This document shows positions 36,416 to 59,054 of a stretch of 64,000 bases of DNA, piece by piece; the first letter of the stretch is position 1, and each line of letters starts with the position of its first letter. This stretch comes from an uncultured Methanomicrobiales archaeon (GTDB lineage: Archaea > Halobacteriota > Methanomicrobia > Methanomicrobiales > Methanospirillaceae). The translations under genes were made by a program, and so were the position numbers. Below the pieces are notes generated by a model. The model was not told the origin of the DNA. It ran no database searches and saw only the letters and a list, made by a program, of their open reading frames with translations. The stretch covers positions 96,001 to 160,000 of the forward strand of contig OY969100.1 in assembly GCA_963697895.1 (NCBI GenBank), written 5' to 3'.

Positions 36416-37177
36416 CTACATATCCTCCGCGAACCGGGGTTCCATCCGGTTGAATATCAGGGTTCCGATGAGGAGGACGATACCCGATGCGAGGATCGTA
36501 TATCCGAGCAGAGGGAGAGAAGGGAAGGTCGCATAGAGCATGATCTCGCGGAACATCACCATGATCGAGCTCACCGGGTTAAGCAGGTAGAGGGCCTGGT
36601 ACTGTTCGGGGATCAGCGTGACCTGGTAGAAGACCGGGGTGAGAAAGTACCCGATCTGCATGAGAACCGTCCATACATTCTCGAGATCCCGGTACCGGGG
36701 AAAGAGCGCCCCGAGGGCCAGACCCACCCCGTAGACCATCCCGAAATAGATCAGCATGAGCGGGGGGAACATCAGGAGATTGAGGGAAAACGGTGCACTG
36801 AAGATGATCAGGAACGCAAAGAGGATGACAAACTCGAGCAGGGAACTGATGAAGCCGGAGATCACGAGAGAAAAGACCAGTATCTGGCGTGGAATGTAGA
36901 TCTTCTTTACCAGCCCCGGTTTGCTGTAGATGGAGCGGACGGTGGAAGATGTGCCGTTCGCGAAGACCCGCCAGACGATGATCCCGACGAACAGGTAAAG
37001 GATCAGGCTGGTATCGGTAACATTTCGTACGTTCCGGAAGACCACGTAGAGGACGACGAGCCACAGGAGCGGGTTTAAGAGGGACCAGAGAAACCCGAGC
37101 ACCGAGGACTGGTACTTGATCCGGAGGTCGCTGATGACAAGGATCCGGATCAGGTCGTAATAATCACGCACCCACAT
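36416..37177 (-). CDS. wzm: Polysaccharide ABC exporter permease (Wzm-like)
   Basis: KYQSSVLGFLWSLLNPL, KKIYIPR, YRD, TPVFY, NP. Confidence 0.95.
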   Translation of the reverse strand: MWVRDYYDLIRILVISDLRIKYQSSVLGFLWSLLNPLLWLVVLYVVFRNVRNVTDTSLILYLFVGIIVWRVFANGTSSTVRSIYSKPGLVKKIYIPRQILVFSLVISGFISSLLEFVILFAFLIIFSAPFSLNLLMFPPLMLIYFGMVYGVGLALGALFPRYRDLENVWTVLMQIGYFLTPVFYQVTLIPEQYQALYLLNPVSSIMVMFREIMLYATFPSLPLLGYTILASGIVLLIGTLIFNRMEPRFAEDM

Positions 37178-42768: not shown

Positions 42769-43669
42769 TCCCTCCGGTCAGATCGGCGTCATAACGACCT
42801 TTTTTGGATATAAAGGAAAAATCCTCCCTAAGATTCGTTTATTATCGGAGATCTTCCTCTCCCTGGGCATCAGGCCGTACATCCAGCTCCACTCCGAGCC
42901 CTCTGAGGAGTTTGATCCTCTTGTTCACGAATTGATCTCGGTACAAAAAGAGTACGATATCAAGTACAGCATCCATCAGTCCCTGTGGCTGCCCCACAGC
43001 GATTTTTTCATCAATTTAGGAAGCAGCGACCCGGATATCAGGGAGGGTTCGATACGGGCTATGAAAAGGTCGATGGATCTTGCGGTCCTGATCGGTGCGA
43101 AGAATGTCAGTTTCCATGCAGGGTATGCAGCGAACGATATGCGACAAGGTTCCGAATTCGATACGCTCGTGCCGGTCGGTGAAATTCCCTATGAGATCGC
43201 GTATGAAAATGTAAACCGGGGACTTCGGGAGATAGTCGATTATCGTGATGAAGATATCCGGATCAGCATAGAAAATTTGTGCCATCGGCCCGGTAACCGG
43301 TATCTCTTTTCAGAACCCTCTGATTTTTTGCATCTGCCCGGCGGGGTGAATGTCCTCTTTGACATCGGTCATGCATATTATTCGGGTGCCCGGACGGACG
43401 ATCCCGGATACATCGACCGGTTTATACAGATAACCGGGGGAAAGATCTCGGAAATTCACGCGAGTGATAACGAGGGGATGGAGGACGAGCACAAGCTGGT
43501 CGGGTCTGGTTCCATTCCCTTTCCTGAAATATTCGGTACAATCAGAAAATTCCAGAGAATGCCGCCGGTCATCATCGAAGCGACCGGCCGGAGATATAAC
43601 TATTCGGATACCGACCTTAAAACCAGTATTATGCAGCTGAATGAGATGCTTTCAGGGGTGGGCGCATGA
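42728..43669 (+). CDS. Sugar-phosphate isomerase/epimerase, xylose-isomerase-like TIM barrel
   Basis: FHAG, SIENL, FDIGHA, IHASDN.G.DEH..G.G.I. The real start is probably near 42758-42761. Confidence 0.85.
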   Translation: MSRALFTEVWVLNDPSGQIGVITTFFGYKGKILPKIRLLSEIFLSLGIRPYIQLHSEPSEEFDPLVHELISVQKEYDIKYSIHQSLWLPHSDFFINLGSSDPDIREGSIRAMKRSMDLAVLIGAKNVSFHAGYAANDMRQGSEFDTLVPVGEIPYEIAYENVNRGLREIVDYRDEDIRISIENLCHRPGNRYLFSEPSDFLHLPGGVNVLFDIGHAYYSGARTDDPGYIDRFIQITGGKISEIHASDNEGMEDEHKLVGSGSIPFPEIFGTIRKFQRMPPVIIEATGRRYNYSDTDLKTSIMQLNEMLSGVGA

Positions 43670-44640
43670 ACCGGTCAGCAGATCCGCCGGTTACCATCAT
43701 CGCCGAACTCTGTCAGAATCACAAGGGGGATATCGATATCCTCAAAGAAATGGTGCGGGAATCAGCGAAGGCAGGCGCAACATATGCCAAAATACAGTCC
43801 ATGTATGCGGACGACCTCACGTTCAGGGAGAGGTTCGAGACAGGATTGATCAAAGACGGGAAAACCCTTACGATCAAGCGGCCGTTCCGGCAGGAATATG
43901 ACCGCCTCAGACCCATGGACCTCGATCCCGAAGCACACTGGATTTTTATCAGGGAATGTGAGCGGTATCACATAAAGCCCCTCACCACTGTTTTTTCCCG
44001 ATCGAGGATACCGTTTCTCGAACAATTCCCCTGGAACGAGATCAAAGTGGCAAGTTATGACTGTGCCAGTTTTCCCCTGATACGGGAATTAAAAGAGAGA
44101 TTCGGACACCTGTTCATCTCCACGGGTGCAACCTACGATCACGAGATCCGGAAAACCGCAGAGATACTGAAAAACCATGGTTATACGTTTCTTCACGGAG
44201 TGACCATTTATCCGACACCCCTCGATTCATTGAATCTTGCACGGATGGATTATTTGAGGCAATTCTCCCCGGCCGTCGGGTTCAGCGATCATACCCTGGT
44301 AGAAAGGGACGGGATAAACGCGTCCATTGTGGCGTTATATAGGGGAGCCGATCTTATTGAAAGACACTTCACCGTCCTCGACAAAACGGAAACCAAGGAC
44401 GGGCCCGTATCGATAAACCCGGACCAGCTGAAAGAACTGGTGGAATTTTCAAAAATGGATAAACATATGCTCAAATCTTATGTACAAAAAGAAATTCCGG
44501 ATTACCGGAGGATGATCGGTGACGGGAGATCGAACCTGACCCACGAGGAGTTATTGAACAGGGACTATTACCGGGGCCGTTTCGCCAGTAAGATCGATAA
44601 CGAGGTCGTGTACAACTATGACGAAAAAAGGGCCTTCTGA
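43666..44640 (+). CDS. neuB: NeuB-family (nonulosonic acid) synthase
   Basis: IIAELCQNHKG, KVAS, ISTG, YPT, GFSDHT, IERHFT. No evident C-terminal SAF domain. Confidence 0.9.
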   Translation: MNRSADPPVTIIAELCQNHKGDIDILKEMVRESAKAGATYAKIQSMYADDLTFRERFETGLIKDGKTLTIKRPFRQEYDRLRPMDLDPEAHWIFIRECERYHIKPLTTVFSRSRIPFLEQFPWNEIKVASYDCASFPLIRELKERFGHLFISTGATYDHEIRKTAEILKNHGYTFLHGVTIYPTPLDSLNLARMDYLRQFSPAVGFSDHTLVERDGINASIVALYRGADLIERHFTVLDKTETKDGPVSINPDQLKELVEFSKMDKHMLKSYVQKEIPDYRRMIGDGRSNLTHEELLNRDYYRGRFASKIDNEVVYNYDEKRAF

Positions 44641-45373
44641 CCGGAAAAACATCCTGGGGATCATTCCGGCACGCGGAGGGTCAAAAGGAGTTCCGAGAAA
44701 AAACATCAGGTTGTTGCATGGAATTCCTTTAATTGCGTATTCCATCTCTGAGGCAAAAAAATCACGGTATCTGAACCGGGTAGTCGTGTCGACCGAGGAC
44801 GCCGAGATTGCGGAGGTGGCGCAAAAGTGGGGGGCAGACATTGTTCTCCGCCCGGATGACCTTGCGGCTGATGATTCTCCGGTATTATTGGCATTAAAGC
44901 AGGTTGTCCTACACCTGTCGGAGAAGGAAGGATATGATGCGGATATCGTTGTCATGCTCCAGCCGACAACGCCATTCCGTAGAGCCCCCGATATTGATAA
45001 TGCTGTTGAATTGCTCTTAAAAACCAATGCGGATTCCGTGATCAGCGTTTGTGAGGCGCCCCATACCTGCAATCCCCACTGGGTAAGAAAAATCGTTGAC
45101 GGCAGGCTCCGTCCCTACACGGATCGGGACGAAGATCTTCACCCGATGAGACAGGATTTACCAAAGGTATACTGGCGGAACGGCCAGATATATGCGATGA
45201 AGAGATCGGTGCTGTTCGATAAAGACAGCCTGTACGGAGACGACTGCCGGCCGTATATCATGCCGAGGAATTTCCATATCAATATCGACGAGGAACTGGA
45301 CCTTCTGCTTGCCGGACTGATCATTGAAAAAGGACTGATTGAAATTGACAAACCGGAAATGGTTTCCCGGTAG
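44618..45373 (+). CDS. neuA: Acylneuraminate cytidylyltransferase
   Basis: IPARGGSKGVPRKN, VSTED, LQPTTPFR, RQDLP, NG.IY, NIDE. Confidence 0.94.
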   Translation: MTKKGPSDRKNILGIIPARGGSKGVPRKNIRLLHGIPLIAYSISEAKKSRYLNRVVVSTEDAEIAEVAQKWGADIVLRPDDLAADDSPVLLALKQVVLHLSEKEGYDADIVVMLQPTTPFRRAPDIDNAVELLLKTNADSVISVCEAPHTCNPHWVRKIVDGRLRPYTDRDEDLHPMRQDLPKVYWRNGQIYAMKRSVLFDKDSLYGDDCRPYIMPRNFHINIDEELDLLLAGLIIEKGLIEIDKPEMVSR

Positions 45374-45706: not shown

Positions 45707-46285
45707 TTAAGCCCGGTATCCGAGTATCTTTCCCGGGTTTCCTGCCACGATCGCATTGTCGGGAACTTCTTTCACCACTACCGCACCCGCGCCGATAACA
45801 GCATTTTTCCCTATCCTGCCGACGTTCGGAAGAATTATGCATCTCTCGAGTAATATTGCCCCTTCCTCGATCACGGTCTTCTTCAACAGGACCTCTTTTT
45901 CCGTCAGGGAACGGTACTGGTGATCGTGCGTGAGTATGGAGACATCATTCGTGATCAGGACATTGTCTTTTATCACCAGTTCTCCCCTGATGTCCAGTCG
46001 CACGTTATTCCGGATGGTCACCCCGTCTCCCAGGATAAGCGTACCGTTGCCATCGATCCGGACACCATCTCCGATCAATGCGAATTTCGATTCGATGGGA
46101 AGTTTGTAGGGGCTTCTCGGCAGGATCAGTCTGCCGCGTGCGTACACGGTTCCCCGTATCCGTGAACGTATCCAGGAATTCCGAAGCGTATTGAAGACGG
46201 GAAGATCCGGAGAGGTGAGCAGTTCCATGAATCCGTTATACAAACGGATCGAAAATAACCGGTAATTTCTTCCCCTGCTTTTCAT
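45707..46285 (-). CDS. Hexapeptide-repeat O-acyltransferase
   Basis: ILTHDH, IGKNAVIGAGAVVVKEVP, AGNPGK. Confidence 0.9.
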   Translation of the reverse strand: MKSRGRNYRLFSIRLYNGFMELLTSPDLPVFNTLRNSWIRSRIRGTVYARGRLILPRSPYKLPIESKFALIGDGVRIDGNGTLILGDGVTIRNNVRLDIRGELVIKDNVLITNDVSILTHDHQYRSLTEKEVLLKKTVIEEGAILLERCIILPNVGRIGKNAVIGAGAVVVKEVPDNAIVAGNPGKILGYRA

Positions 46286-46306: not shown

Positions 46307-47476
46307 TCAGTATCCACCATGTTCCGGTCTCCGGTCGGGCCCGCCTGGCGGTGACCCTCCGGCGACGCGCCGGTAATACGCCTCCGCGAGGTCGGTGATC
46401 CGCTCCCAGTCGTAGGGTCCGGTGAACGCGATCGCGTGCGGCCGCATCTCCGGTGCACGGGCCAATGCTTTACGGATGGCGACCGCGAGCGCCGGCGCCG
46501 TCGGGGCGCAGAGGACCCCCTGGTCCGCGGTGACAAAGTCCTTTGCCGCATTCTGCGGGTGATCCGCGGTGACCAGGACGAGGCCGCAGGCCAGGGCCTC
46601 GAGCGCCGCGATGCCGAACCCCTCGCGGGTGGAAGGGAATGCAAAGACGGTCGCGGATTTCATCCGGGAGATCACCGCGTCGTGGGTCGGAAGCATGCCG
46701 GTGAACGTGACCTGCCCTGCAACCTGCAACGTCCGGGCGAGCGCCTCCAGCCGTTCCCGTTCCGGACCGTCCCCGATGATCAGGCAGCGGATGCCGGGGA
46801 GTTCCGCCGCACACGACGCGACCGCCTCGATCAGGAGGTCGACATGCTTCTCCGGGATGAGCCGCCCGGCAAACAGGACATCGACCGGGTCCGGCGAGGC
46901 GGGCAGTGCGAGGATCCGTTCCCGGTCGATCCCGTTCGGGATGATCGCGCTCTCCTGCCCGGAGAGTTCCCAAAGAGCCCGGGCAGTGAGGGGGGAAGCC
47001 GAGACCGCATGGGGAGAGATACCCGCCACCACCCGTTCGATTGCTTTTCCAAACGCCCCCCATCTCCCGAGGTATTCGTACCAGTACTCCCCCCATACCT
47101 CGTGCCAGGTGATCACGAGGGGCGTCCTCCGGAGAACCGCACTCAGTTTCGCTCCGAATACCGAGAAGAAGGGAAAGTGCTGGCAGTCGATCAGGTCGAA
47201 TCTCCGGGAAACAAGCGGGATCACGACGGCCCACCCGAAGAGGATCGCTTCCCCGATGGACCGTCTCCCGTCGCGGTACAGGGGCATCTCCGGGCAGACC
47301 CCGTGGAGCGTCACCCCCTCACGGGTGATGGTTGTGGCGCCGACCCAGCAGTGCATCCCGAAGAGGTGCACCTCGTGCCCTCGTCCTGCGAGCCGCTTCG
47401 CCACCTCCCAGATCCGCAGCTGCACCCCGCCCGGTATCTCGGGATATACCGCATCGTAGACGTAGGCGATCCGCAT
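46307..47476 (-). CDS. GT4 glycosyltransferase
   Basis: YDAVYP..GG, IPNGID, FAGRLIPEK, REGFGIAALEA. Confidence 0.94.
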   Translation of the reverse strand: MRIAYVYDAVYPEIPGGVQLRIWEVAKRLAGRGHEVHLFGMHCWVGATTITREGVTLHGVCPEMPLYRDGRRSIGEAILFGWAVVIPLVSRRFDLIDCQHFPFFSVFGAKLSAVLRRTPLVITWHEVWGEYWYEYLGRWGAFGKAIERVVAGISPHAVSASPLTARALWELSGQESAIIPNGIDRERILALPASPDPVDVLFAGRLIPEKHVDLLIEAVASCAAELPGIRCLIIGDGPERERLEALARTLQVAGQVTFTGMLPTHDAVISRMKSATVFAFPSTREGFGIAALEALACGLVLVTADHPQNAAKDFVTADQGVLCAPTAPALAVAIRKALARAPEMRPHAIAFTGPYDWERITDLAEAYYRRVAGGSPPGGPDRRPEHGGY

Positions 47477-47488
47477 CGCTCCCCCCGT

Positions 47489-48655
47489 TCAGGACTCCGG
47501 CAGGTTCATCCGCATCATGCTCACAAAGATGGCAAAGAAGATGATCTGCACCCCGATGCTGATCCCGGCAAGGGAGAGGATCGCGTTTGCGATCTCGGAG
47601 AGAGACCCGTACCCGGACTGGATCCACTCGGAGATGATCGAGAACCCGAGCACGATCCCGAGCAGGATCAGCAGGCCCCCGAGGAGGAGAAACCGTTCCA
47701 GGTTATGATACCGGAGGATCACCTCCGTGACCCTGCTCCGCTCCCCGTACCCGTGGATCTCGGAATACACGTCGATCATCGCCCCGGTCAGGAACGCCTG
47801 GACGCCCGCCACCAGGAGAAAACCGCCGAGGATGACGGTGTGGGCGTGCGTCTCGGCCGATCCGAGGGCGAGAAGACTGATCAGGGCGATCCCGATGAGG
47901 GCGAAGATCAGCCCGGGGACCGCGATGAACGGGATCGGTTTTAGGAGCAGAATGAACCGCACGTGCCGCCACCCGTCGGCAAAGGAATGCAGATTTGACG
48001 GGCTCTTCCGGGGATGATAGTGAATCGGGACCTCCTCTATCCGGAGATGCTCCCGGTTCGCCGCGACGAGCATCTCAGATGCGAACTCCATCCCCGACGA
48101 AGTCAGGCGGAGCCGCTCCAGGGCCTCCCGCCGGATCGCCCGGTACCCGCTGTGGGTATCGGTAAACTGCGTGTGAAAGATCCGGTTCAGGAGCCAGGTG
48201 AGCAGGGGGTTTCCGATGTACCGGTGCAGCCATGTCATCGACCCCGGATCCATCTTCCCGGTGAAGCGGGACCCGATCACGAGGTCGGCTCCCCGGGAGA
48301 GCGGGGAGACGAGGGCGGGAAGTTCGGAGAAGTCGTACGTCCCGTCGGCGTCTCCCATGACGACGTAATCCCCCCGGGCACGCCCGAATCCCGCGATATA
48401 GGCGTTCCCGTACCCCCGTGCCCCGGGATGGATCACCACCGCCCCGAGCGATCGGGCGATCTCCGGGGTCCGGTCGGTGGAAGAATCGGCAACGATGATC
48501 TCCCCGGAGATCCCGTTCTCCCGGAACGCCTGCTGAATCGCCTGGATACAGGGACCGATCGTCTGCTCCTCGTTCAGCGACGGGAGGACGACCGATACGG
48601 TCCCTTTCATCCCTGCCGGGGCCGGCTGATCTCCTTCATGGTTCATCCGCACCAC
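47489..48655 (-). CDS. GT2 dolichol-phosphate glycosyltransferase (DPM1-like)
   Basis: VLPSLNEE, RGYGNA, MGDADGTY, IGSRF, GMEFASEM; C-terminal TM helices. Confidence 0.93.
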   Translation of the reverse strand: MVRMNHEGDQPAPAGMKGTVSVVLPSLNEEQTIGPCIQAIQQAFRENGISGEIIVADSSTDRTPEIARSLGAVVIHPGARGYGNAYIAGFGRARGDYVVMGDADGTYDFSELPALVSPLSRGADLVIGSRFTGKMDPGSMTWLHRYIGNPLLTWLLNRIFHTQFTDTHSGYRAIRREALERLRLTSSGMEFASEMLVAANREHLRIEEVPIHYHPRKSPSNLHSFADGWRHVRFILLLKPIPFIAVPGLIFALIGIALISLLALGSAETHAHTVILGGFLLVAGVQAFLTGAMIDVYSEIHGYGERSRVTEVILRYHNLERFLLLGGLLILLGIVLGFSIISEWIQSGYGSLSEIANAILSLAGISIGVQIIFFAIFVSMMRMNLPES

Positions 48656-48670: not shown

Positions 48671-51235
48671 TCACGGGACCTGCAGCCCCTTCCGCACGTC
48701 GTCTTCCGTCACCTGGTACGTCGTCCCGGTGCCGGCGATCCGGTACGGCCCGAGCGCCCGCACCCCGGTCCCGGTATCGATGGTCGGGTACGGCACGATG
48801 AACTCCCCGTTCTCGCTCTGCTGCCGGTAGGTAAACTGCCTCCCCTCGTTCGTTTCCAGGGAGAGCTCGATGATGCCGTCCCCCCGGATGTGCGCCCCCT
48901 CCACGATCTCGAAGATCTTGACCGCCTGTATCGGCGCCAGCCCGGGCTGCCGTGCATTGGTCGGGGACTCGTAGACGAGGCGGAAATGCCTGAGCGCGGG
49001 AATCACGTCCACGGGCTGGTCCACGAACCCGCTGACCGCGATGGCTCCGGAATCCCCGGTAAGCCCCGACTGTACGGCCTTCGCACGCGCTTCTCCTGCC
49101 GGGAGCTTCTCCATCGTGGTGACAACCGGGTAGGGCACTCCGGCTTCCCGCGTATATTCAACATAGAACGCCGTGTCCGGAACGACCATGCTCCCGTCGA
49201 AGTTGTGGAGCCGGGTGGACATGGCGAGGAAGAACGGTTGCGCAAAGAACTGGAGAACTTTCGTATCCCCGGAAGCCTGAGGCTGGATCATGATGGGTGT
49301 AAAGTCCTCCCAGGTGAAGCCCCGCGGGATGGACTGATTCCCGAGGACCAGCGTCGTGACGTACCCGTAATCGGTGACCACGTAACGACTCCCGAGGGCG
49401 GATGAGACATTCAGGGCGGTATTCTCGTCCTGTGCGAAGAGGAACTGGTAGACGTTGTTCCGCCCCGTAACATGATCCTGGAACGGGTTTGCATTCGGGA
49501 TACGCTGCGCGATGTACGTGATCCAGTGCCCCGCCGGCCACCGGGCGAGTACGCCGTAGGCGGTATCCGGATACTGGAACGTGTCCTTATCGTAGATCCG
49601 GTAATAGTCGACCCCCGTCTCCGGGGTATGGGTACCCATCCACGTCGTCGCCGCGACCCAGTCGGCCGGGATCATATCGGATGCCTGCCCCTGGTGGTTC
49701 GCGATGATCACCGAGGTGGTGGCCGAGAGCACCGCAAAGAGCACCAGCAGGACCAGCGCGATGATCGCGACGGCCGCCCGGACCCCGGACGGCTTCTCCA
49801 CGGAGGGGGCCTCTTTCCGGGGCTTTCCCTTCTGCTTCGGGGTTTTCTCCCCCCCGGAACGCCGGAGGAGGCGGCGGATGTCTCCTCCCCCCCATGACCA
49901 TGCCGCAGTGACCGCGAGCGCGGAGAGGAGGACCACCGGCACGGCCAGGTAATATTCGTACCGGAGGTGCTGGATCGTCGAGAAGAGCACCACTGCGCCC
50001 CATACGAGCACGAACATGGCCTCCGCACGGCGGGTCCGGTATATTTCATACAGGAGGACGAAAAATCCCCCTGCCATAAGGATGAGACCGACGTTGAAGA
50101 CTGCCACGGCCCGGGTCAGGTCCCAGGGCTGGAGCTCCGCGACATAATACGGCTGCCCGATGTTCGCGAAGAAGACGCCTGCCGACTGGACCATCAGCTG
50201 CCCGAACTCCGGCAGGACCACGAGGGGGATGCCGATCGCAAGGAGCGCCGCCGCGATGAGGAATACGATAAAAAGGAGCTGTTTTTTCCGGAACACCCGG
50301 GTGAGGGCATACAGGACGGCCGTCACAACTATCAGGATCAGGTACACGTACACGTGCGCCATCGAATACAGGGAGAGGGAGAGCAAGGAACTCTTCGCGC
50401 CGAAGAGGAGGAACCCGATGATGACGATCCCGAAGATCGTCGCGTTCATGAAGAGGAGGTATGCGGTGGACCGCTCCCGGAAATAATCGGCGATCCCCTG
50501 GGCCAGGGTGAATATACCCACGATGAGGGCGAAGAGGACGATCGTCGGCATGTTCAGCAGACCGAGAAGGTAGGCGATACCCGCAAGGACAGAGAGGAGG
50601 AGGGGGGTCGTCAATGTCCGGAGGTCCTTTGTCGTCATCTCCTTCCAGCCGGGGTACCGGAGGAGGGCGATGTAGATGAGGGCAAAGATGGTGGAGAAGA
50701 GGACCTCCATGATATGGTGGTCCACGTACCCGAAGAAGCCCCGGTACATGTATTCCCCGGCGACCACGGCGATCAGGCCGGCCGCGATCAGGCCGGTCCA
50801 CTTGTCCCGGAGCACCCGCCCGGTCAGGTACATCACCGGGACCATCAGGGCCGCGAGGATGACCGGGAAGATCGAGGCGACATATGCCGCTTCAGGGCGG
50901 GTCGTTGCCCCGAACAGGAGACAGAACGCGGCGGCCGAGACCGGAAAGAGCGGCCCCCAGTCGATGATCTTCCCGTCGGGGTACGCAGTCATCGGGTCGA
51001 ACCAGGCATAACCCGGGAAGTTGTGGATCACCTGGTCGATCTGGCGCATCATGAACCAGGGATCGGTTGAGATGAGCCGCACCTGGCCGTCGATGACGAG
51101 CGAAGCGGCAGGGAGCATGCGGATCGCGACCGCCACGGCAATGAACAGGAGGAGCAGGAGGGGTACGATGTACTTCCGGAGCGCCGGAGATAAACCCGTT
51201 TTCGCGGGTTCCGGGGGTTTCGTCGGGTCGGGAAT
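48671..51235 (-). CDS. aglB: Oligosaccharyltransferase STT3/AglB-like with a non-canonical WWDYG motif
   Basis: STDPW, FDPMTAYP.G, DHH, VAE, RYEYY, W...TP and GHWITYIAQRIPNANPFQ; many TM helices. The frame extends upstream of GTG 51136 to ATT 51235. Confidence 0.93.
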   Translation of the reverse strand: MPDPTKPPEPAKTGLSPALRKYIVPLLLLLFIAVAVAIRMLPAASLVIDGQVRLISTDPWFMMRQIDQVIHNFPGYAWFDPMTAYPDGKIIDWGPLFPVSAAAFCLLFGATTRPEAAYVASIFPVILAALMVPVMYLTGRVLRDKWTGLIAAGLIAVVAGEYMYRGFFGYVDHHIMEVLFSTIFALIYIALLRYPGWKEMTTKDLRTLTTPLLLSVLAGIAYLLGLLNMPTIVLFALIVGIFTLAQGIADYFRERSTAYLLFMNATIFGIVIIGFLLFGAKSSLLSLSLYSMAHVYVYLILIVVTAVLYALTRVFRKKQLLFIVFLIAAALLAIGIPLVVLPEFGQLMVQSAGVFFANIGQPYYVAELQPWDLTRAVAVFNVGLILMAGGFFVLLYEIYRTRRAEAMFVLVWGAVVLFSTIQHLRYEYYLAVPVVLLSALAVTAAWSWGGGDIRRLLRRSGGEKTPKQKGKPRKEAPSVEKPSGVRAAVAIIALVLLVLFAVLSATTSVIIANHQGQASDMIPADWVAATTWMGTHTPETGVDYYRIYDKDTFQYPDTAYGVLARWPAGHWITYIAQRIPNANPFQDHVTGRNNVYQFLFAQDENTALNVSSALGSRYVVTDYGYVTTLVLGNQSIPRGFTWEDFTPIMIQPQASGDTKVLQFFAQPFFLAMSTRLHNFDGSMVVPDTAFYVEYTREAGVPYPVVTTMEKLPAGEARAKAVQSGLTGDSGAIAVSGFVDQPVDVIPALRHFRLVYESPTNARQPGLAPIQAVKIFEIVEGAHIRGDGIIELSLETNEGRQFTYRQQSENGEFIVPYPTIDTGTGVRALGPYRIAGTGTTYQVTEDDVRKGLQVP

Positions 51236-51573
51236 AATACTGTACTATTGCCGATCGTGAATCATAAACGTTCTCTTGCAGGATATCCGGGAAGCCGCCG
51301 GACGCTGTTTTCCGACCCCGGTGAGGTACCATAAAGAGGTGCCTGCCAGAAAATCCCGGTGTTCCGGCCGTTTTTTTTATCCGGAGAGGAAAAACCGGAC
51401 ATAAGGATCGGGAAGAAATTATAACAAAATCTATAGGAAGACACGACAATTCATTACCGGAGAGACCGGGGATGGTGGCTGGATGCCACAATACCGTGAT
51501 GAATAACGGTTTTTGGCCGCCTGTACATCGGTACAGGAGAAACTCGGAGAACGATTAGGGAAGGCACCAGTCC

Positions 51574-52704
51574 ATGTTCCATTTCTCAAATCCTGCCCGG
51601 GTGAGACTGAAGCAATTTTTTTCTCTCCCGGATTGTTATGTTAAAATCATAAGGAATGAAGAATTTAAAAAATCCCGGAATAAATCAGGATGGGAACTGG
51701 CACGGGATCTCTGGACCCTTTTTTTCAGCTATAAAATGTTTCCCAGGATTTATGTCTGGTGCCGGTTATGGGAAGTGGACCGATCGCAGTGGAAATATTA
51801 CTACGGATATCAAACCATCCAGAAGGCGAGATTGCGAAGTACCGTTGAACCCCGGGAATACGATATCCTCTTCGACGATAAAGCGGTTTGTGAACTTCTC
51901 TGCAGGGGGATCGGGGTAACGAATCTTCCGCATACCTATGGTCTCATTCGTCCCGATCAGGACTATACCGAGAGGATCAGATCGATCTTTCAACATGCAG
52001 CGACACCTTCCCTGATCATCAAGCCGGTACGGGGTCATGCGGGGCGGGACATAGTACTGGTCACGATGACCGACGGGACCATCAGGATCCGGTCCGGACG
52101 GGAACTCATACCGCTGGAGGATTTTACGTTAGCAAAACCTGCGATTGTCCAGGAACTGGTTAAGCAGGACCGGAGAATGGCCGCATATTCATCAGCGTCC
52201 GTGAACACGATACGGGTCCTGACAATGTTCACCAAAAACGAGTCTGTTATTGTCCTGGCTGCATCGATGCTCTGTGGTGTCGGGGATTCGTATGTCAGCA
52301 ACTGGTCCGCGGGAGGGGTCGGGATCGGTATCGATACGGCAACAGGACGACTCATGAAATATGCGCATGATAAAAATGCAACGAGATATACGGAACATCC
52401 GACATCGAAAATTACGTTTGAAGGTTTTCCGGTACCCGAATGGGAGCGGATCATCGACCTCGCCACGACAATTCAAAAAGCATTCCCCTTTTACCGGATG
52501 CTCGGCACGGATATCGCCCTTCGGGAAGGGGGGGAACCGGTCCTTATCGAGATAAACAACGATCCGGGGTTTTCGGGAATGGAACAAACACGCCCTTTGC
52601 TCCAGGCCGAACAGAATCTGAAAGCATTTGGGGAATACGATCTGTTCATCAACAAACACCAGAGGGAACTGTATGCTGATAAAGAGAATACCGCGGGCGT
52701 CTGA
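51574..52704 (+). CDS. Sugar-transfer-associated ATP-grasp protein, paralog 1
   Basis: FDDK, IIKPVRGHAG, IVQE..Q, SVNTIRV, SNW.GG, HPTS, G.DIA, IEIN. Confidence 0.88.
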   Translation: MFHFSNPARVRLKQFFSLPDCYVKIIRNEEFKKSRNKSGWELARDLWTLFFSYKMFPRIYVWCRLWEVDRSQWKYYYGYQTIQKARLRSTVEPREYDILFDDKAVCELLCRGIGVTNLPHTYGLIRPDQDYTERIRSIFQHAATPSLIIKPVRGHAGRDIVLVTMTDGTIRIRSGRELIPLEDFTLAKPAIVQELVKQDRRMAAYSSASVNTIRVLTMFTKNESVIVLAASMLCGVGDSYVSNWSAGGVGIGIDTATGRLMKYAHDKNATRYTEHPTSKITFEGFPVPEWERIIDLATTIQKAFPFYRMLGTDIALREGGEPVLIEINNDPGFSGMEQTRPLLQAEQNLKAFGEYDLFINKHQRELYADKENTAGV

Positions 52705-52755
52705 TCTGCGAAATAACCGGTAATCCGGGTGAAGAGAGGCAGGAGGCATTCAGTC

Positions 52756-53898
52756 ATGTTGCGCGTATCGAATCCAGCGGTTAACCGATTGACAGAATTT
52801 TTTTATCTCCCTGATTGTTATCGGAAAATAATAACCAGCAAAGAGTTTAAAAATTCAGGTAAAAGATTACGGGTGGGGGTGGCATTTGATCTTCTGATCC
52901 TTTTTTTCAGCTACAGATCGTTTCCCAGCCACTACGGTATGAACCGGTTATGGGAAATCGACAGATCTCAATGGAAATATTATTTTGGAGACGAACTGAC
53001 AACCTACCAGAGATCAAGGCTGGGGAGCACGGTGGAACCCCGGGAATATGAAATTCTCTTCGATGATAAGGCAGTCTGTGAAATTCTCTGCAGGGGAATC
53101 GGTGTGAGTAATCTTCCCCGTATGCATGGTCTCCTCAGCCCCGGTCAGAACTACCGGGAAAGAATCAGGGCATGGTTACAAAATTCAGCAACAGGTCCCC
53201 TGATCATCAAGCCGGTACGAGGTCATTCGGGGCGGGGTATCGTTCTGGTAAAGGAGATTGAGGGAATTATCATGATCCAATCCCTGTCGGGGTTGGTACC
53301 CCTGGAGGATTTTACGTTGGAGAGACCTGCGATCGTGCAGGAGCTGATAAAGCAGGACCCGAGGATGGCTGCATTTTCCCGATCGTCGGTGAACACCATC
53401 CGCGTCCTGACCATGTTTACCAGGGACGAGTCCGTCATTGTCCTCGCCGCATCGATGCTCTGTGGTATCGGGGATTCTTATGTCAGCAACTGGTCCAGAG
53501 GGGGGGTCGGTCTGGGTGTCGATCCGCTCACCGGGCGGTTAATGAAATACGCGTATGATAAGGACGCAAAAAGGTATTCAAAACATCCGACGTCCGATGT
53601 TCCGTTTGAAGGGTATCAGATACCCGGATGGGAGCGGATCATCGACCTCGCCATAACCATACAGAGGGCTTTTCCCTGTTACCGCATTCTCGGGATCGAT
53701 TTTGCGATCCGGGAAGACGGCGAACCGGTCATCGTTGAAATAAACAGCAATGCAAGTCTTCTCGGACAGGAACAATCCTGCGGACCATTGCTTCAGGCCG
53801 AACAGAATCTCAGAGCGTTCGGGGAATATGACCTGTTTATCAACAGGCACCAGAGGGAACTGTATAAAATTTATAAACGAAAAAACGAGAGGTCATAA
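52756..53898 (+). CDS. Sugar-transfer-associated ATP-grasp protein, paralog 2
   Basis: Same motifs as paralog 1, with long near-identical stretches. Confidence 0.88.
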   Translation: MLRVSNPAVNRLTEFFYLPDCYRKIITSKEFKNSGKRLRVGVAFDLLILFFSYRSFPSHYGMNRLWEIDRSQWKYYFGDELTTYQRSRLGSTVEPREYEILFDDKAVCEILCRGIGVSNLPRMHGLLSPGQNYRERIRAWLQNSATGPLIIKPVRGHSGRGIVLVKEIEGIIMIQSLSGLVPLEDFTLERPAIVQELIKQDPRMAAFSRSSVNTIRVLTMFTRDESVIVLAASMLCGIGDSYVSNWSRGGVGLGVDPLTGRLMKYAYDKDAKRYSKHPTSDVPFEGYQIPGWERIIDLAITIQRAFPCYRILGIDFAIREDGEPVIVEINSNASLLGQEQSCGPLLQAEQNLRAFGEYDLFINRHQRELYKIYKRKNERS

Positions 53899-53899
53899 C

Positions 53900-55804
53900 G
53901 TGTGCGGCATAACGGGCATCTGGTCCTATAATCAACCCGATATTTCAGACCGGGAGATGGACAGCTTCACCGATATTCTTGCGCACCGCGGACCGGACGG
54001 GAGAGGCACGTACCGCGATGGGGGATGCGATCTCCGGCTCGGGCACCGCCGGCTGGCAATACTCGATCTATCGGATGCCGGGCACCAACCGATGAGTTCT
54101 GCCGATGGAAGATATTGGATCGTCTTTAACGGCGAGATCTACAACTACCTTGAACTCAGAGCGGAACTGGAAGCTCTGGGGCATGTATTTACCAGTCACA
54201 CCGATACTGAAGTTCTTCTTGCCTCGTATATTCAGTGGGGGGAAGAATGTCAGCTCAAATGTAACGGGATGTGGGCGTTCGCGATCTGGGATGCGGATAC
54301 CCGGACCCTGTTCCTCTCGAGGGACCGGTTTGGAATAAAGCCCCTTTACTATATCGTGAATGACCGGTTTTTCTCTTTTTCTTCGGAGATGAAAGGATTT
54401 CTCGCGTTAAAGTGCTACAACTACGGATTTGATGACGAAAATATCATACGGACCCTCCGTGAGGTTGACGATCTCGAAGGAACCGAGGAGTGCCTCCTTC
54501 AGGGAGTGAAACGCCTGATCGGGGGGCATTGCCTGACAATCGGATCGAAAAGAAGTCCAAAGATCACCCGATGGTGGGATACCCGCGACCACCTTGTCGA
54601 GGTACCGGAGACCTTTGAAGAACAGGCGAAAAAATTCCGCGAACTTTTTCTGGATGCCTGTCGTATCCGGATGCGCAGCGACGTTTCGATCGCCACAAGC
54701 CTGAGCGGGGGGCTGGATTCCAGTTCCGTACTGGCAGCTGTTTATAAAATAGGGCAGGTCGAAGGGTTTACCACGGACTGGCAGAAGGCATTTGTAGCCT
54801 GCTATCCGGAAACCGGGCTGGACGAGAGTCATTATGCGGGCGTAATGATCGACGCGACCGGAGCATTCCCCGTCTTCACGGAGATCGGGTACGATCTCGT
54901 GAAGAAGCATATCCAGGATATTGTCTATCAAAACGAGGGGATCGATCGGATACTCCTGGAAGGTGCATGGCTCAATTATAAGGCAATGCGGGACAACAAG
55001 GTCGTCGTAAGCCTGGACGGGCACGGTGCCGACGAACTGCTCGCCGGTTACGCAACGATCGTAAACACGGAGAAAAATTATGCTGTCCAGCACGGCAACC
55101 TGTTCTATTATTCCGACCTGCGGAACGTATTGAAAAATCTCAGGGAAGGTTCACAATCCGTACAACTGTCGATCCATGACGACATGATCTATTTTTTTGC
55201 CGCGAATTTCTTCTCGATGGGGAAGAAACTCGCAAATATGCTCCCCAGAAACAACAGGCGAGATCTTTCGCCGGGGTATTCTGCGGTGGTACCCGATCCG
55301 GTCATACAATCACATCTGAATACGACGTTATACGATTATTTTCATTGCCGGAAACTCCAGACCATCCTTCGGATTTTTGATCGTCTGTCCATGGCCCACG
55401 GGATTGAAGTCAGGATGCCTTTCATGGACTGGCGACTGGTGACCTATGCTTTTTCTTTACCGGACAACTGCAAACTCTCGAAGGGGTATACAAAATGGAT
55501 CCTCCGTGCCTCGATGGACTCAATGTTACCCGAATCCATTCGTTTGCGGAAGAATAAAATCGGCTTTTCATCACCGATGACACAATTTTTTGAATCGGGG
55601 CTCGGTGATATCATCCTTCCCCTCATTACCGATTGTGTTCATCGGTACCCGCAATTTTACCCCGAGGGAGATCTGGTGGCGGATATTCAACGGTATACCG
55701 CCCAGAAAAACTGGCCGAAATTACGATCGTTATGGCCAATCCTGCAGATATATCTCTTAATCGATGCGTTTAATAAAAAGAGGGATTCGCTCTTGGCGCT
55801 CTAG
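53900..55804 (+). CDS. asnB: Asparagine synthase (glutamine-hydrolysing)-family amidotransferase
   Basis: GTG start then CGITG (catalytic Cys2); HRGPD, FNGEIYNY, LSGGLDSS, GHGADE, EVRMPF, KIGF. Confidence 0.95.
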   Translation: MCGITGIWSYNQPDISDREMDSFTDILAHRGPDGRGTYRDGGCDLRLGHRRLAILDLSDAGHQPMSSADGRYWIVFNGEIYNYLELRAELEALGHVFTSHTDTEVLLASYIQWGEECQLKCNGMWAFAIWDADTRTLFLSRDRFGIKPLYYIVNDRFFSFSSEMKGFLALKCYNYGFDDENIIRTLREVDDLEGTEECLLQGVKRLIGGHCLTIGSKRSPKITRWWDTRDHLVEVPETFEEQAKKFRELFLDACRIRMRSDVSIATSLSGGLDSSSVLAAVYKIGQVEGFTTDWQKAFVACYPETGLDESHYAGVMIDATGAFPVFTEIGYDLVKKHIQDIVYQNEGIDRILLEGAWLNYKAMRDNKVVVSLDGHGADELLAGYATIVNTEKNYAVQHGNLFYYSDLRNVLKNLREGSQSVQLSIHDDMIYFFAANFFSMGKKLANMLPRNNRRDLSPGYSAVVPDPVIQSHLNTTLYDYFHCRKLQTILRIFDRLSMAHGIEVRMPFMDWRLVTYAFSLPDNCKLSKGYTKWILRASMDSMLPESIRLRKNKIGFSSPMTQFFESGLGDIILPLITDCVHRYPQFYPEGDLVADIQRYTAQKNWPKLRSLWPILQIYLLIDAFNKKRDSLLAL

Positions 55805-58812: not shown

Positions 58813-59054
58813 CACGAATAATAATGGTATAAACGGGCAATAAATTTGGTTATAGTGACACATTTCGTGATTAAAAGCCGATGGTATTTTTTTAATATAA
58901 TGGTAAAATTTTCCGGCAGCAGAAAACCAATTGTTACCGGTGGAAATTCTTATATTCTCACAATTTCTATAGAAGGGTAATTTCTATTCCTGATTTAAGA
59001 AAATGCGCAATCTGACATAAATTTTTATGAGAAAACCCTCTAACCTAATTGCAA

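What the first reader, a model, noticed from the sequence alone, without database searches (positions are those of the whole stretch)
48671..51235. AglB oligosaccharyltransferase with WWDYG replaced by RWPAG
Seen: at 49529-49543 the motif reads GVLA-RWPAG-HWITYIAQRIPNANPFQ. These are multiple in-frame substitutions, not an indel artefact, and the downstream DK-motif region appears to read DYGYVTT. The catalytic-side motifs (STDPW, DHH, VAE, RYEYY) are retained. Known: the WWD residues form the pocket that binds the +2 Ser/Thr of N-x-S/T and are near-invariant in STT3/PglB/AglB. Inference: a paralog that is still catalytic but has altered acceptor specificity (non-sequon, O-linked or non-protein acceptor), dedicated to this locus.
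Basis: partly seen in the sequence, partly recalled or inferred. Interest (0 to 1): 0.85.

Follow-up and report, generated by a model that had tools for sequence, protein, structure and literature searches.

The report
AglB paralogue lacking its sequon pocket
A methanogen that already has a normal protein-glycosylating enzyme (AglB) carries a second, conserved copy whose catalytic and sugar-donor parts are intact, but whose pocket for reading the Ser/Thr of the N-x-S/T signal has been replaced, so it probably attaches sugars by a different rule; this particular copy also lacks an ordinary start codon.

Summary
Window 49529-49543 (-) encodes RWPAG where AglB/STT3/PglB enzymes have WWDYG, and the DK-motif region reads DYGYVTTLVLGNQS.

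The gene is a true AglB homologue. It scores 709.7 bits on TIGR04154, and its model matches A. fulgidus AglB-L at Z 37.5. The same genome has a canonical AglB (WWDYG plus the DK motif) 1.76 Mb away.

The variant motif is not a one-off. Seventeen metagenomic relatives (64-86% identity) all carry (R/Q)W(P/T)AG, and the K of the DK motif survives in only two of them. The metal, Asn-activating and lipid-phosphate residues are invariant. Open frames, site-wise constraint and an excess of third-position differences indicate purifying selection.

The gene forms a compositionally distinct three-gene unit with an AglJ-like GT2 and a GT4, and these appear to travel with it.

My best reading (0.5) is an active, AglB-derived transferase that no longer reads Ser/Thr at +2.

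One caveat applies to the window's copy. It has no ATG, GTG or TTG ahead of transmembrane helix 1, and an upstream ATG is followed by TAG.

WWDXG variation among multi-copy AglBs is already noted in the literature, and this scan has noted WWDYG-less STT3-like genes on other DNA. I therefore rate it a new variant of a known kind.

The parts
48671..51136 (-). AglB-paralogue ORF counted from the first canonical start (GTG); 821 aa
   Evidence: ORF list. TIGR04154 709.7 bits against a cut-off of 450. Pfam STT3, AglB_core-like and AglB_L1. The AF2 model matches 3WAJ at Z 37.5.
51137..51244 (-). In-frame open extension of 36 codons that encodes TM1 (LRKYIVPLLLLLFIAVAVAIR, 51119-51181) but contains no ATG, GTG or TTG
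   Evidence: Translation and codon list. The hydropathy peak is 2.78 over open-frame residues 18-54.
51182..51184 (-). GCG (Ala) at the position where relatives have V or M, the likely GTG/ATG start before TM1
   Evidence: In alignment A1, V or M occupies this column in 10 of the 11 relatives that reach it, and it is the first residue in 7 of them. Coordinates.
51245..51247 (-). In-frame TAG, seventh codon after the upstream ATG (51263-51265)
   Evidence: P0002 has Tyr and P0011 has Trp at this position. No PylS was found in the genome (best 28.5 bits, cut-off 178).
51056..51070 (-). STDPW: first DXD-type motif; the Asp aligns with AfAglB-L Asp47
   Evidence: phmmer alignment to 5GMY. The Asp is 100% conserved in both the clade and the canonical set.
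50714..50722 (-). DHH: second DXD motif, equivalent to Asp161-His162-His163
50135..50146 (-). YVAE: the TIXE motif of external loop 5, with Glu (Glu360 equivalent) kept and Thr replaced by Tyr
   Evidence: Canonical T 94% and E 100%; clade Y 75% and E 100%.
49949..49963 (-). RYEYY: Arg426 equivalent (phosphate site)
   Evidence: 100% in both sets.
49529..49543 (-). RWPAG in place of WWDYG (Trp550->Arg, Trp551 kept, Asp552->Pro, Tyr553->Ala, Gly554 kept)
49478..49489 (-). NPFQ: Gln571 equivalent, in the segment that follows the WWDYG helix
   Evidence: 100% in both sets. Taking it as the DGGK-motif equivalent is my inference from its position.
49331..49372 (-). DYGYVTTLVLGNQS: the former DK-motif (kinked helix) region with the signature E..K...M lost
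   Evidence: At the canonical K column (97% K) the clade has L in 81%.
47489..48655 (-). AglJ-like GT2 with a C-terminal membrane domain, 15 nt downstream of the AglB paralogue
   Evidence: Pfam GT2. TIGR04182 AglJ 201 bits, below its cut-off of 325. Tight clade and shared contig lengths. GC3 0.843.
46307..47476 (-). GT4 glycosyltransferase, 12 nt further downstream
   Evidence: GC3 0.813.
45707..46285 (-). Hexapeptide-repeat acetyltransferase on the same strand, 21 nt downstream; not part of the compositional unit
   Evidence: GC3 0.606.

Best explanation
The gene is a second, diverged paralogue of the archaeal oligosaccharyltransferase AglB (STT3 family, TIGR04154 type). It lies in a Methanolinea-like Methanomicrobiales genome that also has a canonical AglB, and it belongs to a small unnamed clade.

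In this clade the donor and catalytic half of the enzyme is fully kept:
- the metal ligands (Asp47, Asp161 and His163 equivalents);
- the TIXE Glu;
- the Arg426 phosphate site;
- the NPFQ segment.

The Ser/Thr(+2)-binding pocket, however, has been dismantled. WWDYG has become (R/Q)W(P/T)AG and the DK signature residues are lost.

The most likely mechanism runs as follows. The adjacent AglJ-like GT2 and GT4 build a glycan on dolichol phosphate. After flipping, the paralogue transfers that glycan on the outer face of the membrane to an acceptor that is not selected through a +2 Ser/Thr. The acceptor is most probably still an Asn side chain held by the Asp/Glu pair and by the main-chain contacts of the TIXE loop, but in a non-N-x-S/T context.

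Shown here: homology, fold, residue retention and loss, clade conservation, constraint, and gene linkage. Inferred: catalytic activity, the donor, and the acceptor.

In this particular genome the copy may be impaired or N-terminally truncated, because no ordinary start codon precedes TM1.
For: Family and fold:
- TIGR04154 scores 709.7 bits. Pfam finds STT3, AglB_core-like and AglB_L1.
- phmmer to 5GMY gives E 2.8e-46.
- The AF2 model (pLDDT 77.8, pTM 0.71) aligns to 3WAJ at Z 37.5, rmsd 3.2 A over 667 residues.

Second canonical copy: an 867-aa ORF with WWDYG and DTLKFWAM lies at G000:C1:1902312-1904915 and scores 885 bits on TIGR04154.

Clade:
- 17 relatives at 64-86% identity are followed by a gap to 44%.
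- The clade collapses to one 50% representative among 1.84 billion proteins.
- It is monophyletic with support 1.0. The stem is 0.66 substitutions per site against a mean depth of 0.42 inside the clade.

Kept and lost (103 canonical and 16 clade sequences):
- D, DHH, E, RYEYY and NPFQ are 100% conserved in both sets.
- W-W-D is 100% in the canonical set. The clade has R 88%, W 100%, P 94%, A 100%.
- The canonical DK Lys is 97%. The clade has L in 81%.
- 27 of 229 columns that are at least 90% conserved in the canonical set are switched in the clade. They include positions 524-529, 591-597 and 318-338 in external loop 5.

Constraint:
- 66.5% of canonical-conserved columns are invariant within the clade, against 11-16% of variable columns (Mann-Whitney p 3e-31).
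- Of the 32 in-gene differences listed for related contigs, 20 are at third positions and 21 are synonymous (binomial p 0.0007).

Linkage:
- The gaps to the GT2 and GT4 are 15 and 12 nt.
- The three genes share GC3 of 0.81-0.85. Flanking genes have 0.55-0.61 and the genome median is 0.63.
- The GT2 and GT4 each have a matching tight clade. Their contig lengths coincide with those of AglB-clade members on 7 contigs.

Literature (passages read in PMC8342417 and PMC3703281):
- WWDYG and DK/MI form the Ser/Thr pocket.
- Asp47 and Glu360 activate the Asn amide.
- TIXE binds the sequon backbone.
Against: - No activity, donor or acceptor was tested, and no RNA data were available.
- The window's copy lacks ATG, GTG or TTG ahead of TM1. 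The upstream ATG is followed by TAG, so it may not make a full-length enzyme.
- Mutating WWD inactivates the canonical enzymes studied (recalled, not read here), so the changes could equally mean loss of transfer activity.
- The TIXE Thr is replaced by Tyr. In AfAglB the segment Leu356-Phe365 is sensitive to mutation (PMC8342417).
- Codon-level dN/dS could not be computed, because no DNA of the clade members could be fetched. The third-position test uses only the 32 in-gene rows among 40 shown; 345 further rows were not shown.
Confidence: 0.5

Rival explanations
1. It is still an ordinary N-x-S/T oligosaccharyltransferase. The pocket is rebuilt from other residues, and the paralogue differs mainly in which lipid-linked glycan it uses (donor specialisation for the glycan made by its own GT2 and GT4).
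For: - The second Trp, the Gly and the following His-Trp-Ile-Thr helix are kept.
- The two basal clade members, P0015 and P0016, still have Lys at the DK position.
- Columns just after NPFQ (G->H, G->N, A->Y), near the donor site, are also switched.
- PMC3703281 describes marked plasticity of the WWDYG motif.
- Multiple AglBs are generally thought to serve different glycans (PMC9128505 passage).
Against: - Asp552 and Trp550 equivalents are 100% conserved in 103 canonical relatives, yet are replaced by Pro and Arg.
- The DK signature is lost, and that region is poorly conserved inside the clade (38-88% per column, against 67-100% in the canonical set). This looks like release from constraint rather than a rebuilt pocket.
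Confidence: 0.15
2. It no longer glycosylates proteins. Either it hydrolyses the lipid-linked glycan to release free glycan, or it passes the glycan to a non-protein acceptor such as a lipid or a surface polymer.
For: - The donor, metal and phosphate sites are intact while peptide-reading elements are degraded.
- OSTs have an intrinsic LLO-hydrolysis activity that depends on the peptide-binding mode (PMC8342417 passage).
- The island also encodes a Wzm/Wzt-type glycan exporter.
Against: - Both carboxylates that activate the Asn amide (Asp47 and Glu360 equivalents) and the I/V-x-E of TIXE remain invariant or nearly so. This is not obviously needed for hydrolysis alone.
- RWPAG is itself strongly conserved, so the site is still under selection.
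Confidence: 0.15
3. It is a catalytically dead pseudoenzyme kept for a structural, regulatory or lipid-glycan-binding role.
For: WWD mutations abolish activity in the canonical enzymes studied (recalled, not read here). The TIXE Thr is changed.
Against: Every metal, phosphate and Asn-activating residue is 100% conserved across a clade that has diverged to 60% pairwise identity. Such conservation is hard to explain without catalysis.
Confidence: 0.08
4. This rival concerns this copy only and is compatible with any of the readings above. In this genome the gene has recently been inactivated or truncated. The usual start codon is mutated (GTG/ATG to GCG), a TAG interrupts the longer upstream frame, and only a TM1-less product from the GTG at 51136 or the ATG at 51118 can be made.
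For: - There is no ATG, GTG or TTG between the TAG (51245-51247) and 51136, although TM1 is encoded there.
- 12 of 17 relatives include TM1.
- P0002 reads Tyr and P0011 reads Trp where the window has TAG.
- The genome has no PylS.
Against: - The remaining 857-codon frame is intact and its composition is unchanged.
- Three relatives (P0007, P0015, P0016) are also called from a Met after TM1.
- A near-cognate start (ATT, ATC or CTG codons are present) or an assembly error cannot be excluded.
- The reads laid did not show these positions: the table was truncated and the near-identical contigs stop at 51152.
Confidence: 0.3

Closest known systems
Archaeoglobus fulgidus AglB-L (PDB 3WAJ, 3WAK, 5GMY, 7E9S)
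   Same: - The overall fold is the same: Z 37.5, 35.2 and 34.2, with 26% identity over 667-715 aligned residues.
- Asp47, Asp161/His163, Glu360, Arg426 and Gln571 equivalents are all present.
- It has the long-type C-terminal domain with AglB_L1.
   Different: - Trp550->Arg, Asp552->Pro and Tyr553->Ala.
- The DK signature residues (Glu613 and Lys618, as named in PMC3703281) have no counterpart.
- The TIXE Thr is replaced by Tyr.
Canonical TIGR04154 AglB of Methanomicrobiales, including this genome's own copy at G000:C1:1902312-1904915
   Same: - It belongs to the same NCBIfam subfamily (709.7 against 885.4 bits; cut-off 450) and has the same three Pfam domains.
- Identity to the own canonical copy is 41% by search and 39% in the alignments.
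- Both copies lie in glycosyltransferase clusters.
   Different: - W-W-D is 100% and the DK Lys 97% conserved in 103 canonical sequences, but both are replaced in the clade.
- The variant has atypical composition: GC3 of 0.85 against 0.66 for the canonical copy.
- It has a different partner gene. An AglJ-like GT2 lies next to it but not next to AglB in 29 relatives' loci with 1.5-kb flanks.
Other AglB-like lineages with departures from WWDYG (for example the VWEAG/VWDAG/TWEAG group P0140, P0142, P0189; LWDYG in P0125 and L028), and the multi-copy AglBs with WWDXG variation mentioned in PMC5131992
   Same: They are secondary paralogues in the same part of the AglB tree, with a degenerate first Trp or Asp. 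Several also lack a recognisable DK motif. The literature passage states that multiple aglB copies can differ in the WWDXG motif.
   Different: None of them has Pro at the Asp position, and none shares the (R/Q)W(P/T)AG word. Those lineages are only 38-42% identical to this protein. I found no description of this clade: the full-text search for RWPAG gave only unrelated hits.
Sequon-independent or non-canonical N-glycosylation reported in haloarchaea (Halobacterium salinarum S-layer Asn-2; non-canonical sites in Haloferax volcanii)
   Same: This is the kind of activity that a pocket-less AglB would be expected to give. Glycosylation of Asn-2 persists when the +2 Ser is changed to Val, Leu or Asn (Zeitler 1998, as described in PMC2952790). 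Three confident non-canonical sites are reported in Hfx. volcanii (PMC8241124).
   Different: Those organisms have a single AglB with WWDYG. The Hfx. volcanii sites carry the AglB-dependent glycan. No link to this clade is known. This is a functional analogy only.
Bacterial and Bathyarchaeial STT3-like families without WWDYG, noted earlier in this scan
   Same: They keep the catalytic residues and have lost the Ser/Thr-reading motif (unchecked notes).
   Different: Those are distant, unnamed families. This one is a close sister of canonical AglB, scores well above the TIGR04154 cut-off, and sits beside a canonical copy in the same genome.

Membership tests
AglB/STT3/PglB oligosaccharyltransferase (GT66), as defined by fold and motifs | STT3-type multi-span membrane domain plus C-terminal globular domain; overall fold | tested here: met
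   PF02516 66.5 bits, PF22627 97.5 bits, PF18079 47.4 bits. The AF2 model matches 3WAJ at Z 37.5, rmsd 3.2 A, 667 aligned.
AglB/STT3/PglB oligosaccharyltransferase (GT66), as defined by fold and motifs | First DXD-type motif on EL1 (Asp47 of AfAglB-L) | tested here: met
   STDPW aligns with GNDPW of 5GMY. The Asp is present in 100% of 16 clade and 103 canonical sequences.
AglB/STT3/PglB oligosaccharyltransferase (GT66), as defined by fold and motifs | Second DXD motif (Asp161-His-His163) | tested here: met
   DHH at 50714-50722.
AglB/STT3/PglB oligosaccharyltransferase (GT66), as defined by fold and motifs | TIXE/SVSE motif on EL5 | tested here: inconclusive
   The Glu is kept (100%) and the I/V is kept, but Thr becomes Tyr or Phe in most clade members (YVAE in the window).
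AglB/STT3/PglB oligosaccharyltransferase (GT66), as defined by fold and motifs | WWDYG (WWDXG) motif | tested here: not met
   RWPAG in the window. The 18 clade sequences, window included, carry RWPAG (14), QWPAG (2) or RWTAG (2).
AglB/STT3/PglB oligosaccharyltransferase (GT66), as defined by fold and motifs | DK or MI motif (Ser/Thr pocket, kinked helix) | tested here: not met
   DYGYVTTLVLGNQS stands against the canonical DIEMDTLKFWAMATW. The clade has L at the Lys column in 81%. A short helix is still predicted there (H584-593; pLDDT below 50 at 592-595).
AglB/STT3/PglB oligosaccharyltransferase (GT66), as defined by fold and motifs | Arg426 phosphate site and the Gln571 segment (NPFQ) | tested here: met
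   RYEYY and NPFQ are 100% conserved in both sets.
AglB/STT3/PglB oligosaccharyltransferase (GT66), as defined by fold and motifs | Complete 13-helix membrane domain including TM1 in the expressed product | tested here: inconclusive
   TM1 is encoded in frame, but no ATG, GTG or TTG precedes it in the window's copy. 12 of 17 relatives include it.
AglB/STT3/PglB oligosaccharyltransferase (GT66), as defined by fold and motifs | Transfer of a lipid-linked glycan to Asn in N-x-S/T | not testable with these tools
   This needs an enzyme assay or glycoproteomics.
NCBIfam TIGR04154 (oligosaccharyl transferase, archaeosortase A system-associated) | Score above the curated cut-off of 450 bits | tested here: met
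   709.7 bits over profile positions 11-831. The genome's canonical copy scores 885.4.
NCBIfam TIGR04154 (oligosaccharyl transferase, archaeosortase A system-associated) | Archaeosortase A present in the genome | tested here: met
   TIGR04125 scores 290.7 bits at G000:C1:273949-274731.

The most novel reading that the evidence does not exclude
The clade is a natural STT3-family oligosaccharyltransferase that N-glycosylates asparagine without needing Ser/Thr at +2. It would be a sequon-independent OST working beside a canonical AglB in the same cell and supplied by its own AglJ-like GT2/GT4 module. That would make it the first enzyme to account for the non-sequon N-glycosylation reported in archaea, and an exception to the published rule that OST paralogues in one organism share one type of Ser/Thr pocket.
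Probability: 0.3. Interest if true: 0.8.

Novelty: new variant of a known kind. Interest (0 to 1): 0.55.

Why it matters
How oligosaccharyltransferases read the N-x-S/T sequon is explained structurally by the WWDYG and DK/MI pocket. Here nature has removed that pocket and kept everything else, in a protein about 40% identical to a canonical AglB encoded in the same genome. The pair offers a clean comparison for asking what the pocket does, and whether an OST can work without it.

If the enzyme is active, it becomes a candidate type for the sequon-independent or non-canonical N-glycosylation seen in archaea. It could also be a tool for glycoengineering without sequon insertion.

If it is inactive or hydrolytic, it documents how OST paralogues are retired or repurposed.

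Tried and rejected
- Pyrrolysine read-through of the in-frame TAG is rejected. No PylS was found (best 28.5 bits, cut-off 178.15).
- Fetching DNA of clade members for dN/dS and synteny failed.
- An exact scan of the species-representative genomes for W-[PTAS]-A-G-H-W-I-T-Y found 0 matches. The window's own genome may be left out of that scan.
- The listing of cluster members gave no accession numbers.
- Expression: no RNA holder was listed for the stretch.
- Reads: the 'other letters' table showed 40 rows and withheld 345. I could not see whether related contigs differ at the motif, the GCG codon or the TAG.
- Earlier notes of this scan near the locus: none.
- Full-text search for 'RWPAG' gave three unrelated papers. 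A search combining WWDYG, AglB and Methanomicrobiales genus names gave only unrelated papers.
- I could not read Kaminski 2013, Nikolayev 2020 or Zeitler 1998. They are cited only through passages in PMC5131992, PMC11407970, PMC8241124 and PMC2952790. Supplements were not consulted, including the mutant activities of Asp552 and Lys618 in PMC8342417, which bear on the pseudoenzyme rival.
- Foldseek 'pdb' was busy on four tries, so 'pdb_via' was used instead.
- The AF2 model was built from the 815-aa form, so it contains no TM1. The tool returns no coordinates, so pocket geometry could not be examined.
- Loci L012 and L014 were dropped from the motif count, because their longest ORF was not the AglB.
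Full report
**Observation.** The ORF at 48671-51136 (-) is 821 aa from its first GTG. It encodes GVLA-RWPAG-HWITYIAQRIPNANPFQ, with RWPAG at 49529-49543. The region where relatives carry the DK motif reads DYGYVTTLVLGNQS (49331-49372). STDPW, DHH, YVAE and RYEYY are present at the coordinates listed under parts. The stated upper coordinate, 51235, is an ATT codon and not a start.

**Family and fold.**
- The protein scores 709.7 bits on NCBIfam TIGR04154, 'oligosaccharyl transferase, archaeosortase A system-associated' (cut-off 450).
- It carries Pfam STT3, AglB_core-like and AglB_L1.
- phmmer finds A. fulgidus AglB-L (5GMY) at E 2.8e-46. That alignment pairs the window's residues with Asp47, Asp161-His-His163, Glu360 of TIXE, Arg426 and Gln571. 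It places Arg-Trp-Pro-Ala-Gly on Trp550-Trp551-Asp552-Tyr553-Gly554.
- An AlphaFold2 model built on alignment A1 has pLDDT 77.8 and pTM 0.71. Confidence is low in EL5, in the loop after NPFQ and at 592-595.
- The model aligns to 3WAJ at Z 37.5 (rmsd 3.2 A, 667 residues), to 7E9S at Z 35.2 and to 5GMY at Z 34.2. These lie above eukaryotic STT3 (Z about 32) and PglB (Z about 21-22).
- The model starts at the ATG at 51118, so it lacks TM1.

**A canonical copy exists.** The genome is 2.09 Mb in one contig, and the window is C1:96001-160000. It has exactly two STT3/AglB_core matches. The other is an 867-aa ORF at C1:1902312-1904915. It carries GVMS-WWDYG-HMITFIAKRIPNANPFQ and DIEMDTLKFWAMATW and scores 885.4 bits on TIGR04154. 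It sits in its own cluster of GlmU-like, GlmS-like, GT2, GT4 and methyltransferase genes. Its nearest relatives in my tree include Methanolinea sequences. Archaeosortase A is present.

**The variant defines a clade.**
- In the 5.8-billion-protein collection, 17 proteins are 64-86% identical to the window's protein. The next hit drops to 44%.
- In the 50%-representative library the clade is a single representative (P0003); all others are 44% or less.
- All 17 carry the variant word: RWPAG in 13, QWPAG in 2, RWTAG in 2.
- Among 40 related genomes the best match to the window protein is 45%. Of the 27 relatives' AglB loci I could read, 26 have WWDYG and one has LWDYG. L012 and L014 were dropped because their longest ORF was another gene.
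- An exact scan of the species-representative genomes for W-[PTAS]-A-G-H-W-I-T-Y found nothing.

**What is kept and what is lost.** I compared 103 canonical relatives with 16 full-length clade members.
- The first-motif Asp, DHH, the TIXE Glu, R-Y-E-Y-Y and N-P-F-Q are 100% conserved in both sets.
- Canonical W-W-D-Y-G stands at 100/100/100/94/100%. The clade has R 88, W 100, P 94, A 100, G 100.
- In the DK region the canonical K (97%), F (100%), A (92%), M (75%) and W (100%) have no counterpart. The clade has L at the K column in 81%. That region is only 38-88% conserved per column inside the clade.
- The two basal members, P0015 and P0016, still have K there, which suggests stepwise dismantling.
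- Of 229 columns at least 90% conserved in the canonical set, 27 are switched in the clade. They include 524-529 (the motif and the two residues before it), 591-597 (DK), 318-338 (EL5, including TIXE Thr->Tyr), 549-557 (after NPFQ) and 394/396 (after the Arg motif).
- According to the passages I read in PMC8342417 and PMC3703281: WWDYG and DK/MI form the Ser/Thr(+2) pocket; Asp47, Asp161 and His163 bind the metal; Asp47 and Glu360 twist the Asn amide; and TIXE binds the sequon through main-chain hydrogen bonds.
- The pattern is therefore that the donor side and chemistry are kept while the side-chain reader for +2 is removed.

**Selection.**
- All 16 full-length clade sequences are open over about 812-895 residues at pairwise identities down to 60%.
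- Columns conserved in canonical AglBs are invariant within the clade in 66.5% of cases, against 11-16% for variable columns (Mann-Whitney p 3e-31). The same fold-wide constraints are therefore acting.
- Contigs of four runs were laid on the gene. X1 and X2 hold near-identical pieces, and X3 and X4 hold relatives 85-99% alike.
- Of the 40 difference rows shown (345 were not shown), 32 lie in the ORF. Twenty are at third codon positions, and 21 are synonymous when taken singly (binomial p 0.0007 against one third).
- Paired +1/-1 indels at 50195-50201 in X3 and X4 keep the frame.
- A codon-level dN/dS could not be computed for lack of DNA.

**Phylogeny.** I built a FastTree tree of 174 sequences over 863 columns, rooted on six distant representatives.
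- The clade is monophyletic with support 1.0. Its stem is 0.66 substitutions per site, and the mean depth inside is 0.42.
- Its sister is a group of eight sequences (support 0.97), one of them with LWDYG.
- It lies in a sub-tree rich in secondary paralogues, some with their own departures: WWDFG, LWDYG, VWEAG, VWDAG, PWDTG and NWDKG.
- Across 308 aligned rows from 268 proteins, 210 have W-W-D, 18 are this clade, 29 are other departures (16 of them without the Asp), and 51 rows do not cover the motif.
- Departures from WWDYG therefore recur in AglB-like paralogues. Pro at the Asp position is seen only in this clade.

**Context.**
- The window is a glycosylation island with GC content from 29% to 66% and many glycosyltransferase and sugar-nucleotide genes.
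- On the minus strand the AglB paralogue is followed after 15 nt by a GT2 with a C-terminal membrane domain. This GT2 is AglJ-like (TIGR04182 201 bits, below its cut-off of 325).
- After 12 nt comes a GT4, and after 21 nt a hexapeptide acetyltransferase.
- The first three genes share GC of 63-67% and GC3 of 0.81-0.85. Their neighbours have GC3 of 0.55-0.61, the genome median is 0.63, and 0.848 falls in the top 2.5% of 789 long ORFs.
- The GT2 has 12 relatives at 73-94% and then a gap to about 62%. The GT4 has 14 at 67-89% and then a gap to 56% or less.
- Contig lengths and sources coincide with those of AglB-clade members. For the GT2 these are 6384, 14259, 21317 and 6120. For the GT4 they are 12433, 21317, 8215, 57299 and 6120. 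That makes seven contigs in all, two of which carry all three genes. This is indirect, because no coordinates were available.
- The GT2 has no close second copy in the genome (next best 36%). No homologue of it lies within 1.5 kb of AglB in 29 relatives' loci.

**The start-codon problem.**
- The frame is open for 857 codons, from 51244. It encodes TM1 (LRKYIVPLLLLLFIAVAVAIR), but there is no ATG, GTG or TTG before the GTG at 51136, which lies inside TM1.
- Where 10 of the 11 relatives that reach this column have V or M (the first residue in seven of them), the window has GCG.
- An upstream ATG (51263-51265) opens MIHDRQ and then meets TAG. P0002 reads MIHDRQYY and P0011 has Trp at that position. 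The genome has no PylS.
- Twelve of 17 relatives include TM1. Three are called from a Met after it, and two are fragments.
- The copy in this genome may therefore be recently disabled, may be made without TM1, may start at a near-cognate codon (ATT, ATC and CTG are present), or the assembly may be wrong at these two bases. The near-identical contigs stop at 51152, so the reads do not settle the question.

**Reading.**
- The conservation of every residue needed to bind metal, lipid phosphate and an amide acceptor argues for a working enzyme whose acceptor rule has changed. So do the strong conservation of the new word RWPAG, the decay of the DK region, and the dedicated AglJ-like initiating transferase.
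- I put 0.5 on an active transferase that no longer reads Ser/Thr at +2, with protein Asn as the most likely acceptor.
- The rivals are: an ordinary sequon OST specialised on a donor (0.15), a hydrolase or non-protein transferase (0.15), and a pseudoenzyme (0.08).
- Independently of these, I put 0.3 on the window's own copy being impaired.

**Comparison with what is known.**
- That archaea with several aglB genes can have versions differing in WWDXG is stated in PMC5131992, citing Kaminski 2013, which I did not see.
[quoted passage not shown] This genome is an exception.
- Sequon-independent glycosylation of Asn-2 in Halobacterium salinarum (PMC2952790) and non-canonical sites in Haloferax volcanii (PMC8241124) show that such chemistry occurs in archaea, but nothing ties it to this clade.
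- Earlier unchecked notes of this scan describe WWDYG-less STT3-like families in bacteria and Bathyarchaeia on other DNA.
- I found no description of the RWPAG clade.
- By descent and fold the protein is an AglB. By the motif definition it fails two defining features. I therefore file it as a new variant of a known kind and not as a canonical AglB.

Noticed in passing
window 1-64000: The window is a compositional mosaic, consistent with a hypervariable, horizontally patched glycosylation island. GC is 29-36% at 1-6 kb, 60-66% at 16-32 kb and 46-50 kb, 48-50% at 40-46 kb, and 39-43% at 56-62 kb. The genome mean is 53.8%.
   Followed up: partly
window 51574-55804 (+): Two tandem 'sugar-transfer associated ATP-grasp' paralogues (376 and 389 aa) are followed by an asparagine-synthase-type amidotransferase. 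They are transcribed divergently from the AglB paralogue. Possibly they add amino-acid decoration to a sugar.
   Followed up: no
window 41047-45373 (+): A nonulosonic-acid-like gene set: an NDP-sugar dehydrogenase with an N-terminal CBS/KpsF-like extension (573 aa), a xylose-isomerase-like TIM barrel, a NeuB/PseI-type synthase and a cytidylyltransferase.
   Followed up: no
window 35801-37177 (-): A Wzm/Wzt-type ABC exporter pair for glycans (galactan or teichoic-acid exporter-like). This offers a route for exporting a lipid-linked glycan other than a flippase.
   Followed up: no
window 17098-18090 (+): A DUF1616 membrane protein (366 bits). A DUF1616 protein is one of the carriers of a non-canonical N-glycosite in Haloferax volcanii (PMC8241124 passage).
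   Followed up: no
window 49331-49372 (-) and clade proteins P0002-P0018: 16 of the 18 clade sequences carry an N-x-S/T sequon (GNQS, GNSS, DNES or GNQT) exactly where the DK motif used to be. P0015 and P0016 lack it. Canonical relatives have W-Y-N-[ST]-[ST] a few residues later. The site might itself be glycosylated.
   Followed up: partly
P0015, P0016: The two basal clade members keep Lys at the DK position (DFGFAPSKSASG) although they already have RWPAG. This suggests WWD was lost first and the DK helix decayed afterwards.
   Followed up: partly
P0133, P0140, P0142, P0156, P0180, P0189; L028 (G009:C43): Another AglB-like lineage has VWEAG, VWDAG, TWEAG, SADAG, PWDTG or NWDKG and no clear DK motif. 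One sequence from a same-family genome has LWDYG. Pocket erosion has happened more than once in this part of the tree.
   Followed up: partly
window 50195-50201: In contigs of runs X3 and X4, a one-base insertion (behind 50195 or 50197) is paired with a one-base deletion at 50201, which keeps the reading frame.
   Followed up: no
window 59049-61313 (+): A 754-aa fusion of a GT4 and a GT2 domain lies in a 39-43% GC segment, next to a TylF-type methyltransferase and a radical SAM gene.
   Followed up: no
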